A stretch of 64,000 bases of DNA, taken from the IMG/VR virus record IMGVR_UViG_3300029186_000001; one strand, 5' to 3'. The DNA is from a virus (Duplodnaviria > Heunggongvirae > Uroviricota > Caudoviricetes). Positions 55,910-58,900 of this stretch are shown piece after piece (within the stretch, counting starts at the first letter, position 1; each line of letters opens with the position of its first letter). The translations under genes and the position numbers were made by a program. A model generated the notes under the pieces. That model had not been told where the DNA came from. It was given only the letters and a program-made list of their open reading frames with translations, and did no database searches.

Positions 55910-58900
55910 ATGGAAAGAAAAAACGCCAATATTGACGATGTTATAAGGACAGTTGAAACCGCCAGCGCGAAAGAGCTGGAAGAGCTTGCAGGTATTCGGG
56001 AAGCTGTTGAAGATTTGAAAGGGGAACGAGTTGCAACTGTTGATCCTGTCTCTCGCAGTGTGTCGGCATTAAATCGCACAATCGAAAATTCACGTCCTGA
56101 CTTTGTGACCAATGTGCCATCAGTGGACTCTATTGTTGACGCAATGAAACGGCTTAATTTAGGGGACGTTTCTCGTATACGGGAGGACAAAGTCACTAAC
56201 CGTGAACAGCAGGCTGCACCAACAGCGCACAATCCCCCAAATAGACGAAGAGAGGCAATAACAGAGGATGTTAAAGCACAGCGGTTAGAAACGGTCAAAC
56301 TCGCTCGTGATTTGAAAGGGGAACGCGTTGCAACGGTTGACCCAGTATCTCGCAGTGTGTCGGCATTAAATCGAACAATCGAAAATTCCCGGCCAGACTT
56401 TGTGGCCAATGCGCCATCAGTAGACCCTATTGTTGACGCAATGAAACGGCTTAATTTAGGGGACGTTTCTCGTGTAGTTCAGGAGGGCATTGCTCAAGAG
56501 GAACAGCAGGCCAAATCAACTACACCAAAGGGTAAAAAAAGACGCAGGAAGGCTATATCAGAGGATATAAAGGCACAACGGACCGAAGCAGCCGAACACG
56601 CTCGCGAAATGTTCGATCAAAAAGGCGGTGCGCAAAAAAGCCAAAACCAACGCGATGCGCGTGGTCGTTTTATTGGAAAGTCAGGGAGTAAGGCCGCAGC
56701 GGAAGATGCCCGTGCTGAACGTGCTGAAAAGGCCAGGCGCAAAGAGGATGATGAGCGTCTAAATGCTGAATCAGGTTTATTAAAAAAACTGTCAAAAGTA
56801 GCTGAAGGCATAGGTAACCCTTCAGAGACTCGTGCCGTCGATGCGTTAGGTTATGCCGTTGCTGGTCCATTGTGGGCAGCAGGGAAGGAGCTTGGCGGGA
56901 TATCAAAAGAAGTTGGTGGATCGCTTAATGGTGCCAGAAAGTCTATTGCCGATGTGATTCGTGGCAATGACGATAATAGCCGTAGAAAAGGTTTTTTTAG
57001 GCGTAAATCGCAAAATAGTGCCGATGTCGTTCAGGTTAACACCCAAAAACGGACGGTTCAGGAACTTCAGGAGCAGACCAGCGAAATTAAAGAGGGCAAT
57101 GACAAGATTCTCAGCGCCCTTGATCAGATAGCCAAAAACACCGGGAAAAAGAAGGGCGGCTTGCTGTCCAAACTATTTAGCCTGTTAGGGAAGGGGGCCG
57201 GTGGCGTCGCGTCGTTGTTAATGGGGCGTGGCATGCTGAAAAAAGCTGGAGCACTCGCTTTTGGCGCTCTGGGGGCAAAGAAACTTGTAGGAATGCTACG
57301 CGGTGGTGGCAAGAAGACTATCGCCCATGAAGGTGGAGATTTGGCTGCCCGGGCAGCAGGTAAATTTGGATTAAAGGCAGTTGGTAAAGGGGCGTTACGC
57401 GCAATTCCCTTAGTCGGCACAGTGGCTGGAGGTATTTATGATGCGGTAACCGGTTGGAATGATACAGAAGCGCAACGTCGAGCGTTTGGGCTTAAATCAG
57501 GACAAGAGCCATCATTCCAGCAAAAAGCCGCTTATACGTTAGCCAATGTTCTTGATATGGGGGGACTGGTATCTGGTATTAGCAGCGCCATTGGTGAGGT
57601 TCTCAAATCACTTGGATTTGAGGATATCGGCAATATGTTGCAATCATTTTCGACGGAAAGTATTGCCCAGGCCATTGATAGTGGGATTACCAACTTAGAA
57701 ACATATATTTCTAACCTTGGCGACACCATTTCTACCAAGTTCGAAGATTACACAGCAAAGATTGGTGATGCTGTTTCAGCATGGTTTAGCGATACATCTA
57801 ATAAGCTGCTTGAAAAGCTGGATGCCATCAAAGACTTCTTTACTGTTGATAACCTGAAACAGGTTTTCAGTGATGCAATTGATAGTGCAATTGATTTCAT
57901 TAAGAACCCAGGGAAACACATTAAAGAGGCGGCTGGTAATATTTGGGATGGGGTTAAAAATTTACCCGGTAAAGCATTAGATGCAGCGGTTGATGCCGTT
58001 AAAAATACCCCTGCGGCAATGATTGTATCAAAAATACCCAATCCGATCGGCGAGGCTAATGCAAAAGAAATCACTCCAGAGTTAAAAGCTCCGGTTAATA
58101 GCCACCAGGAGACATCTGATTCTAAAACTGAATCCGATGCTAAACAGACTAATATTGCTACCCGCGTGATAAATGCGGCACTGGACACGGCGAAAGATAG
58201 CAATAAAACAGTTAAAGAAACTGCCAATCAGATTATCAATGCAAATGCCGTAGAAATGGGCAATAGCGCGGTGCGGAAAATTGATTCAGCTATTGGACAA
58301 AATAGCTCGTCATCATCGTCGCGTAATACCACCGGCACTGGGAATGACATTCAGAAAGCTGCTGATACCTACAATAATGGCAACTTAGATGTAAAAGTCG
58401 GAAGCCTTGGCGCTGAAGGTAAGGCAAATCTCGATAAGTTAGCTCCGTATTTTGCTGAACTAGAGAATAAATATGGTCTTCCTGAAGGCACTCTTTACGC
58501 GATTGCTGCAACTGAATCAGGAGGGGATCCTAACGCAAAGTCTCCGCTTACAAGATCACCAGATGGAAAGTTAAGTGGTGGCGCACTCGGGATGTTCCAG
58601 TTCACGAGTATTGCTCGTAAAGAGACAGGGATATCGGAACCGGATGCATTTGATCCTGTGAAATCGGCAGAAGCTGCGGCTCTTCTCATGAGCAAGTATC
58701 TGAAGCAAGCCAATGGAGACTTAAACGAGGCCATCACTGCATATAACGCTGGGTTTGGCACTATTAATAGGTGGAAAAAAGGCACAGGTGACTTATCGAA
58801 AGAAAACCGTGAGTACGCGATCAAGGTCAATACTCATCGTGCTCGCTATTTAGGTGGTGAAATCTATACACCAGGGGCAGGAGCACAGGGGGGGGCGCAA

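What the first reader, a model, noticed from the sequence alone, without database searches (positions are those of the whole stretch)
56012..56605. In-frame 297-bp tandem duplication inside the sit-like transglycosylase gene
Two adjacent 297-bp units (~90 percent core identity) encode two copies of a 99-aa segment (LKGERVATVDPVSRSVSALNRTIENSRPDFV...AMKRLNLGDVSR) near the N-terminus of the 1239-aa protein. My recollection is that P1 Sit is about 99 aa shorter, which would make this a lineage-specific expansion. If the protein acts as a length ruler or ejected internal protein, repeat number could alter tail length or ejection.
Basis: partly seen in the sequence, partly recalled or inferred. Interest (0 to 1): 0.4.

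Follow-up and report, generated by a model that had tools for sequence, protein, structure and literature searches.

The report
Repeat polymorphism in P1 tape-measure gene
The tail "tape measure" gene (sit) of this P1-like phage-plasmid carries two in-frame copies of a 99-amino-acid module where reference phage P1 has one; this is a real and common natural variant (one, two or three copies circulate) that probably makes the tail slightly longer, which nobody has measured.

Summary
Two adjacent 297-nt units lie at 56012-56605, in frame, inside a 1239-aa sit gene (55910-59629). P1 Sit is 1140 aa with one unit, and P7 and SJ46 also have one.

It is neither an assembly artefact nor private to this genome. 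The tail of unit 1, which P1 lacks, marks alleles with two or more units. It occurs in 137 of 479 P1-like plasmids in PLSDB (29%) and in 198 of 472 sit-bearing records from complete E. coli genomes (42%). About 2% carry three units, including an intact 1340-aa gene. Phage phi456 has two units and forms plaques.

Each unit has three parts: a 55-aa core under strong purifying selection (dN/dS 0.09), a hypervariable linker, and a basic helical segment. Hybrid middle units in the three-copy alleles show at least two independent unequal crossovers. The module has no detectable homolog outside P1-like Sit proteins.

The literature identifies Sit as the essential P1 tape measure protein, and the P1 tail has 52 tube rings. 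The best reading is therefore a copy-number polymorphism of the ruler, predicted to add about 4-5 rings (15-19 nm) per unit. That effect is inferred, not shown. I rate it an ordinary kind of thing, apparently undescribed for P1, and of modest interest.

The parts
55910..59629 (+). sit gene: tape measure protein with a C-terminal-half lytic transglycosylase domain, 1239 aa (two-unit allele)
   Evidence: ORF list. 95.9% nt identity to P1 sit over 97% of its length, with a 297-nt gap. Protein 96% identical to P1 Sit. phrog_2533 E = 0. Gene order tub-pmgB-sit-pmgA-bplA as in P1.
55910..56011 (+). N-terminal 34 codons preceding the repeat, invariant in all six alleles compared
   Evidence: Columns M1-E34 are invariant in the alignment of window, P1, P7, phi456, SJ46 and pEC2_5 Sit.
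56012..56308 (+). Unit 1, the extra unit absent from P1. Core C1 is 56012-56176 and tail T1 is 56177-56308.
   Evidence: T1 has no match in P1, P7 or SJ46. Its only homolog in the window is T2 (43% aa identity). T1 serves as the marker for alleles with two or more units.
56309..56605 (+). Unit 2, the counterpart of the single P1 unit. Core C2 is 56309-56473 and tail T2 is 56474-56605.
   Evidence: 92.6% nt identity to the single P1 unit over all 297 nt. The diagnostic residues A33, A35 and P40 are shared with P1, P7 and SJ46.
58448..58807 (+). SLT lytic transglycosylase domain (aa 847-966)
   Evidence: Pfam PF01464, E = 5.8e-26, 90.8 bits against a cut-off of 21.3.
54947..55828 (+). pmgB, an essential tail morphogenesis gene proposed as the tape measure chaperone (context)
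   Evidence: phrog_1854 E = 9e-154. 98.6-100% identical across alleles with one, two or three units. Its role is proposed in PMC9024508.
59629..59985 (+). pmgA, a baseplate wedge (T4 gp25-like) gene (context)
   Evidence: The ORF matches P1 PmgA. Role taken from PMC9024508 and PMC12810830.

Best explanation
The feature is a natural copy-number polymorphism of a 99-aa module just behind the invariant 34-aa N-terminus of Sit, the tape measure protein of P1-like myoviruses.

Shown here:
- The window carries the two-unit allele (C1-T1-C2-T2).
- P1, P7 and SJ46 carry one unit (C-T2).
- About 2% of elements carry three units.
- The alleles interconvert by unequal homologous recombination between the near-identical 165-nt cores. 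The middle units of three-unit alleles are C2/C1 hybrids joined to T1, with at least two different crossover points.
- Both cores are kept by purifying selection.
- The two-unit haplotype has a single origin and has been recombined onto different sit backgrounds.

Inferred, not shown: Sit is anchored in the baseplate hub, and its N-terminal end lies at the head-proximal end of the tail, where tube growth stops. Inserting 99 aa between the invariant N-terminal cap and the rest of the protein should therefore lengthen the ruler. The predicted gain per unit is about 3.7-3.9 rings if the unit is helical at 1.5 A per residue, or about 4.5 rings if scaled to P1's 1140 aa per 52 rings. That gives tails of roughly 52, 56-57 and 60-61 tube rings for one, two and three units.
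For: - Repeat and reading frame.
- One unit in P1, P7 and SJ46; two in phi456; three in 813R1, EC12, XH987, pEC2_5 and p211899A.
- Census: 137 of 479 plasmids and 198 of 472 E. coli genome records carry T1, and 8 and 9 of them carry it twice.
- An intact 1340-aa three-unit gene exists.
- phi456 is infectious.
- Hybrid middle units: EC12_U2 is a C2 core (100%) plus T1; EC2_U2 is a C2 5' part joined to a C1 3' part ('VDS') plus T1.
- Core dN/dS is 0.09.
- The identity break at unit position 165/166 is abrupt, from 100% to 48.5%.
- T1 is at least 99% identical in 131 of 137 records. Two-unit alleles are 98-100% identical to the window over 991 nt, against 93-97.6% for one-unit alleles.
- Sit as tape measure protein: gene position, a virion component by mass spectrometry (PMC9024508), essential (PMC10695390), and assigned as TMP in the cryo-EM work, which reports 52 tube rings and a tail terminator whose termini become disordered on TMP release (PMC12810830).
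- From established knowledge: changing TMP length changes tail length in lambda gpH (Katsura and Hendrix 1984) and in the contractile T4 tail via gp29 (Abuladze et al. 1994), both cited in PMC13585406.
- There are no compensating deletions. Total Sit length ranges from 1130 to 1340 aa.
Against: - No tail length or ring count exists for any two- or three-unit phage.
- Sit itself is unresolved in the cryo-EM map, so where its N-terminal region lies is inferred.
- The AlphaFold model of aa 1-400 has low confidence (pLDDT 42.5). It shows each unit as short helices plus about 50% coil, with 5-6 prolines, rather than a continuous ruler helix.
- P1's own ratio is odd. 1140 aa as helix would be 171 nm, against about 200-210 nm for 52 rings, so the simple 1.5 A per residue ruler does not hold quantitatively.
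- Several three-unit alleles are disrupted by a frameshift, an IS100 insertion or fragmentation. Copy gain might therefore sometimes occur in elements that no longer make tails.
Confidence: 0.55

Rival explanations
1. The length polymorphism is functionally silent. The N-terminal repeat region is a flexible, partly disordered spacer that is not part of the effective ruler. It might be compacted near the terminator or neck, or tolerated as slack, so tail length is the same whatever the copy number, and the alleles drift and hitch-hike on successful plasmids.
For: The model is low-confidence and coil-rich, and the units are proline-rich. The linker half of the tail evolves fast (about 50% nt identity; dN/dS 0.53). 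All three copy-number states occur as intact genes with near-identical neighbouring genes. The helix-length arithmetic for P1 already fails.
Against: The core is under strong purifying selection in both copies (dN/dS 0.09), so the module is not junk. By topology the insertion lies between the invariant N-terminal 34 aa and the rest of the protein. In the rulers that have been tested (lambda gpH, T4 gp29; established knowledge), internal insertions lengthen the tail.
Confidence: 0.28
2. The unit is an interaction module. It would dock the putative chaperone PmgB, the tail terminator or tube end, or, through its basic KKRRRK/NRRRE patch, the leading DNA end. Copy number would then change valency or ejection behaviour rather than length.
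For: The conserved 55-aa core plus a basic segment (pI about 9.8; 18-19 K+R per unit) looks more like a binding module than a generic coiled coil. The module is confined to P1-like Sit proteins: 4 hits among 1.84 billion representatives, and only Punavirus in the phage collection. The terminator termini become disordered when the TMP leaves.
Against: PmgB is 98.6-100% identical across copy-number classes, and no substitution tracks copy number. No partner has been identified, and no structural evidence exists. This rival does not exclude a length effect at the same time.
Confidence: 0.15
3. The duplication is an assembly or sequencing artefact, that is, a mis-expanded repeat.
For: Nothing beyond the general risk with tandem repeats.
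Against: The two units differ at 64 of 297 positions, so reads place them unambiguously. The identical arrangement is present in hundreds of independently assembled complete plasmids and genomes, and in an isolated phage.
Confidence: 0.01

Closest known systems
Bacteriophage P1 Sit (AAQ14011, 1140 aa) and P7 Sit (AAQ07509, 1130 aa)
   Same: Orthologous gene in the same tub-pmgB-sit-pmgA-bplA context. The protein is 96% identical, with the same SLT domain and the same invariant 34-aa N-terminus.
   Different: The references have one 99-aa unit (the C-T2 type). The window has an additional C1-T1 unit inserted upstream of it.
Sit of phage phi456 (WNL49372, 1231 aa) and of many IncY P1-like plasmids (for example NZ_CP048611, NZ_CP145648, LT905089)
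   Same: The same two-unit N-terminus at 99-100% identity.
   Different: In phi456, the sit segment downstream of the repeat belongs to the other (SJ46-like) haplotype and lacks the 10-aa insertion in the SLT domain. This shows that the two-unit N-terminus has been recombined onto different backgrounds.
Ruler (tape measure) proteins whose length sets tail length: lambda gpH, T4 gp29, TP901-1 TMP
   Same: A long protein encoded between the tube/chaperone genes and the baseplate genes. In those systems, in-frame deletions and duplications scale the tail (established knowledge; cited in PMC13585406, and PMC8616913).
   Different: No length experiment exists for P1 Sit. The repeat unit here is 99 aa and mixes helix with coil, unlike the 11-aa periodic repeats described for siphovirus TMPs. 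A 2026 survey characterises myovirus TMPs as having no tandem repeats.
Tape measure proteins that carry a muralytic domain: T5 Pb2 and mycobacteriophage TM4 TMP
   Same: A cell-wall hydrolase domain embedded in the ruler. Gonzales et al. 2022 draw this comparison for P1.
   Different: They are unrelated in sequence outside the hydrolase domain, and the repeat polymorphism described here lies far from the SLT domain.

Membership tests
P1 Sit orthologs (phrog_2533) | Full-length sequence similarity to P1 Sit | tested here: met
   phrog_2533 E = 0 and 2516 bits, covering profile positions 34-1130 in the best stretch, with two stretches reported because of the repeat. 96% aa identity to P1 Sit.
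P1 Sit orthologs (phrog_2533) | Conserved synteny tub-pmgB-sit-pmgA-bplA | tested here: met
   ORFs at 54321-54932, 54947-55828, 55910-59629, 59626-59985 and 59982-61415, compared with the P1 annotation.
SLT lytic transglycosylase domain (Pfam PF01464) | Match above the gathering threshold | tested here: met
   E = 5.8e-26, 90.8 bits against a cut-off of 21.3, at aa 847-966.
Phage tail tape measure proteins (functional class) | Gene lies between the tail tube/chaperone genes and the baseplate genes | tested here: met
   pmgB lies immediately upstream; pmgA (gp25-like) and bplA (gp6-like) lie downstream.
Phage tail tape measure proteins (functional class) | Sequence membership in a curated TMP family (for example the Pfam TMP models) | tested here: not met
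   The Pfam scan at E <= 0.1 returns only SLT, SLT_3 and two spurious weak hits, and no TMP model. The TMP assignment therefore rests on gene position, size, virion mass spectrometry and cryo-EM context in the literature.
Phage tail tape measure proteins (functional class) | Predominantly alpha-helical, extended protein | tested here: inconclusive
   The AlphaFold2 model of aa 1-400 has mean pLDDT 42.5. It shows many helices, but the repeat units are about half coil. [quoted passage not shown]
Phage tail tape measure proteins (functional class) | Virion component that is essential for tail formation | not testable with these tools
   Literature only. P1 Sit was detected in virions with 23 peptides (PMC9024508), and CRISPRi knock-down abolishes plaque formation (PMC10695390).
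Phage tail tape measure proteins (functional class) | Changing the protein's length changes tail length | not testable with these tools
   I found no measurement for P1-like phages with one, two or three units.

The most novel reading that the evidence does not exclude
Copy number of the 99-aa module defines discrete tail-length classes (about 52, 56-57 and 60-61 rings) that segregate at high frequency in natural P1-like phage-plasmids. Selection maintains these classes, for example by matching tail reach or ejection to host envelope, O-antigen or capsule thickness. The observed excess of the two-unit allele among human isolates would be one trace of that selection.
Probability: 0.12. Interest if true: 0.6.

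Novelty: new member of a known kind. Interest (0 to 1): 0.3.

Why it matters
P1 is a model phage and a workhorse for transduction, and P1-like phage-plasmids are widespread carriers of resistance genes. Its tape measure protein is the one major tail component still unresolved structurally.

A naturally occurring, high-frequency allelic series of one, two and three units, differing by exactly 99 aa next to an invariant N-terminal cap, is a ready-made experiment. It would test whether Sit really is the ruler, how many residues correspond to one tube ring in a contractile tail whose helix arithmetic does not add up, and whether tail length has any fitness consequence.

If copy number does not change tail length, that would be informative in its own way. 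It would show that the N-terminal region of a myovirus tape measure protein is not part of the ruler.

Tried and rejected
1. Assembly artefact. Rejected: hundreds of independent complete assemblies share the arrangement, and the two units differ at 64 positions.

2. Private, lineage-specific expansion. Rejected by the census.

3. Simple recent duplication. Rejected: tail dS is 0.87 against core dS of 0.28, with an abrupt boundary.

4. Looking for distant homologs of the module to learn its function.
- The word-indexed protein search gave only partial Sit fragments and one 42%-identical single-unit homolog (P0017).
- An exhaustive HMMER search of 1.84 billion representatives gave 4 hits, all Sit-like.
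- tblastn against the phage collection found only Punavirus.
- The scan of species-representative genomes found 3 loci; the two full ones have one unit.
None of these gave a functional lead.

5. Structure prediction of aa 1-400. Confidence was too low (pLDDT 42.5) to justify a fold search, so none was run.

6. A donor for the divergent T1 tail elsewhere in the window. None found.

7. Co-variation of the putative chaperone PmgB with copy number. None found.

8. Published tail measurements for multi-copy phages. The phi456 paper gives none. The preprint that mentions 813R1 and 673R5 was found but not read. The P1-CTX paper gives about 140 nm for a phage related to SJ46, a single-unit element, which is not comparable.

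9. Prior description of the polymorphism. It is not mentioned in the comparative papers on P1-like plasmids that I checked.

Full report
**1. The observation**

Tandem Repeats Finder reports a single array at 56012-56581 with period 297, 1.9 copies, 81% matches and score 770. The repeat finder gives a 168-nt core (56012-56179 and 56309-56476) at 92% identity, with a spacing of exactly 297 nt. The two 297-nt units align without gaps. As protein they are 72% identical over 99 aa.

Both units lie in frame in the ORF 55910..59629 (+, 1239 aa), beginning at codon 35. blastn of one core against the other gives E = 3e-65.

**2. What the gene is**

The window is a P1-like phage-plasmid. It is 99.8-99.9% identical over 25 kb to E. 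coli and Klebsiella plasmids. It carries three tRNA genes and short tandem repeat arrays at 36996-38293.

The ORF is the ortholog of P1 sit:
- 95.9% nt identity over 97% of its length.
- 96% protein identity.
- phrog_2533 with E = 0.
- The same tub-pmgB-sit-pmgA-bplA gene order.
- A Pfam SLT domain at aa 847-966, E = 5.8e-26.

The P1 record annotates Sit as 'putative structural injection transglycosylase; putative tail ruler'. Later work supports the ruler role:
- Gonzales et al. 2022 detected Sit in virions and argued that Sit, not gp6, is the tape measure protein. They proposed PmgB as its chaperone (PMC9024508).
- A CRISPRi screen found sit essential (PMC10695390).
- The 2026 cryo-EM study assigns Sit as the TMP. 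It reports 52 tube rings and 53 sheath rings, could not resolve Sit, and notes that the tail terminator's termini become disordered on TMP release (PMC12810830).

**3. Comparison with relatives**

| Element | Units | Sit length |
|---|---|---|
| P1 | 1 | 3423 nt / 1140 aa |
| P7 | 1 | 1130 aa |
| SJ46 | 1 | 1137 aa |
| This window | 2 | 1239 aa |
| phi456 | 2 (99% identical to the window's) | 1231 aa |
| vB_EcoM-813R1, pEC12-3, pXH987-OQX, pEC11-AU-EG2 | 3, gene disrupted | not applicable |
| pEC2_5, p211899A | 3, gene intact | 4023 nt / 1340 aa |

The single unit of P1, P7 and SJ46 corresponds to the window's unit 2 (92.6% identity over all 297 nt for P1).

The disrupted three-unit genes are broken in different ways. 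pEC12-3 and pXH987-OQX have a frameshift giving a stop at codon 505. pEC11-AU-EG2 has an IS100 insertion. 813R1 is fragmented by several indels.

phi456 forms plaques and myovirus particles (PMC10967188), so the two-unit protein is functional.

**4. Census**

The first 991 nt of sit match 479 PLSDB plasmids and 472 records in 470 of 5426 complete E. coli genomes.

The tail of unit 1 (T1, 56177-56308) is absent from one-unit alleles, so it marks alleles with two or more units.
- It is present in 137 of 479 plasmids (29%), with 8 extra places, which indicates about 8 three-unit alleles.
- It is present in 198 of 472 E. coli records (42%), with 9 extra places.

T1 is at least 99% identical in 131 of 137 plasmids. 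Two-unit alleles are 98-100% identical to the window over the 991-nt probe, whereas one-unit alleles are 93-97.6% identical. The two-unit N-terminus therefore has a single origin and is widespread. The two collections overlap and are clonally biased, so these percentages are only indicative.

**5. Anatomy and evolution of the unit**

- *Core, unit nt 1-165 (55 aa).* C1 and C2 differ at 13 positions, 10 of them synonymous. dS is 0.28 and dN/dS is 0.09, which indicates purifying selection on both copies.
- *The last 47 nt of the core* (unit nt 119-165) are identical between the two copies. Identity then falls abruptly, from 100% in the 133-165 bin to 48.5% in 166-198, 51.5% in 199-231, and about 70-76% in 232-297.
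- *The tails* have dS of 0.87 and dN/dS of 0.53.

This three-fold difference in synonymous divergence, together with the sharp boundary, points to one of two histories. Either the cores have been homogenised by gene conversion after an old duplication, or a C1-T1 block was imported from an unsampled lineage. The low diversity of T1 favours recent spread. I could not decide between the two. T1 has no other homolog in the window.

All one-unit alleles have C2-type diagnostic residues (A33, A35, P40). A 42%-identical distant Sit homolog (P0017) also has one unit. One unit is therefore probably the ancestral state, with C1-T1 the inserted block.

The middle units of three-unit alleles are recombinants. 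EC12_U2 is a C2 core (100% identical) plus T1. EC2_U2 has a C2-type 5' core and a C1-type 3' core ('VDS') plus T1. This is the product expected from unequal crossing-over between the cores of two-unit alleles, with two different crossover points, so there were at least two independent events.

Sit is also mosaic downstream. The two-unit N-terminus sits on a P1-like middle segment in the window and on an SJ46-like middle segment in phi456. A 10-aa indel in the SLT domain assorts independently of copy number.

**6. Is the module found elsewhere?**

No. The evidence:
- A profile of the two units searched against 1.84 billion representative proteins gives four hits, all Sit-like.
- tblastn against 50,697 phage records finds only Punavirus.
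- The species-representative genome scan finds three loci; the two full-length matches span about 301 aa, consistent with one unit.
- Pfam has nothing for the region.

**7. Mechanism**

By topology, the insertion lies between an N-terminal 34-aa segment that is invariant in all six alleles compared and the rest of the protein.

In the tape-measure model (established for lambda gpH and T4 gp29; cited), the C-terminus is held in the baseplate hub and tube polymerisation stops at the N-terminal end. An internal insertion therefore lengthens the tail.

Arithmetic:
- 99 aa as helix is 14.9 nm, or 3.7-3.9 rings at a rise of 38-40.6 A. That rise is typical for myovirus tubes from my own knowledge; it is not given in the P1 paper.
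- Scaling by P1's 1140 aa per 52 rings gives 4.5 rings.
- No compensating deletion accompanies the extra units. Sit length ranges from 1130 to 1340 aa.

Caveats:
- The AlphaFold model of aa 1-400 has low confidence (pLDDT 42.5). It shows each unit as two short helices, a coil of about 30 residues and a longer helix, not a continuous helix.
- P1 Sit as a pure helix would measure only 171 nm, against about 200-210 nm for 52 rings.
- No ring count exists for any multi-unit phage.

I therefore put the tail-lengthening reading at about 0.55, a silent spacer at about 0.28, and an interaction-module role at about 0.15. PmgB does not co-vary with copy number, which gives the interaction-module reading no support.

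**8. Comparison with what is known, and novelty**

Tandem repeats and length changes in tape measure proteins are a known theme, for example in TP901-1 and in mycobacteriophages. A 2026 survey characterises myovirus TMPs as having no tandem repeats.

I found no description of the Sit repeat polymorphism in the P1 structural papers or in the comparative P1-like plasmid papers I checked. The literature library is incomplete, however, and the alleles themselves are long since deposited.

I class the feature as a new member of a known kind: real, common, mechanistically unsurprising, and easy to test. Interest 0.3.

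Noticed in passing
window 63397-63644: A second in-frame tandem repeat (period 132 nt, 1.9 copies, 78% matches) encodes two copies of a 44-aa motif: KYTAQDA(S/T)TTQKG(L/I)VQLSS..TNSTSE.LAATPKAVKAAYDLA. It resembles the common phage tail-fibre repeat. From the P1 gene order it should lie in the S tail-fibre gene, which runs off the end of the window.
   Followed up: partly
window 58544-58573 (approx.; Sit aa 879-888) and Sit aa ~430-800: sit is mosaic. A 10-aa indel (PLTRSPDGKL) inside the SLT domain is present in the window, P1 and pEC2_5 and absent from P7, phi456 and SJ46. 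The middle third of the protein exists as two haplotypes. Both features assort independently of repeat copy number.
   Followed up: partly
L006 (NZ_CP195557), L007 (NZ_CP060935), L008 (NZ_CP102674), L001 (ON470617): Several three-unit sit alleles are disrupted. pEC11-AU-EG2 has IS100 inserted in unit 3. pEC12-3 and pXH987-OQX have a frameshift giving a stop at codon 505. 813R1 has multiple indels. pEC2_5 and p211899A are intact. It is unclear whether the third copy tends to arise in decaying elements or whether this is a sampling or sequencing effect.
   Followed up: partly
census rows: In the evenly spaced sample of E. coli genome hits, two-unit alleles came from human isolates in 16 of 23 rows with a stated source. 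One-unit alleles did so in 12 of 31 rows (Fisher p = 0.03). Clonal sampling probably confounds this.
   Followed up: no
P1 Sit versus P1 tail (literature): P1 Sit (1140 aa) as a continuous helix would span 171 nm. P1 has 52 tube rings (PMC12810830), or about 200-210 nm at a typical rise. Gonzales et al. quote a 120-nm tail. The residues-per-ring ratio (about 22) is lower than the roughly 27 expected for a helical ruler, and this is unexplained.
   Followed up: no
window 55593-55898 (+): A 101-codon ORF in the +1 frame overlaps the 3' end of pmgB and ends 12 nt before the sit start. The phi456 record annotates a short ORF (Orf23) at the corresponding place. Tape measure chaperone genes often use programmed frameshifts, but the offset here is not the canonical -1, and I made no test.
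   Followed up: no
window 36996-37037, 37082-37183, 38209-38293: Short tandem repeat arrays (periods 21, 21 and 31 nt) lie in the part of the window whose plasmid matches include repA and parB genes. They are presumably the P1-type replicon iterons.
   Followed up: no
window 27848-27923, 29924-29999, 30002-30077 (- strand): Three tRNA genes: Met (CAT anticodon), Thr (TGT) and Asn (GTT). From my own knowledge, P1 also carries a small set of tRNA genes.
   Followed up: no
protein P0019 (1009 aa, representative library): This cluster representative starts inside T1, continues through unit 2 and about 120 further aa of Sit, then switches at '...GKELGGI' to an unrelated sequence. It may be a fusion, a rearrangement or a chimeric contig.
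   Followed up: no
L013 (JQCU01000535, 'Acinetobacter idrijaensis', 236-nt contig): A 236-nt contig in an Acinetobacter assembly is 97% identical at protein level to the Sit repeat region. It is most likely contamination.
   Followed up: no
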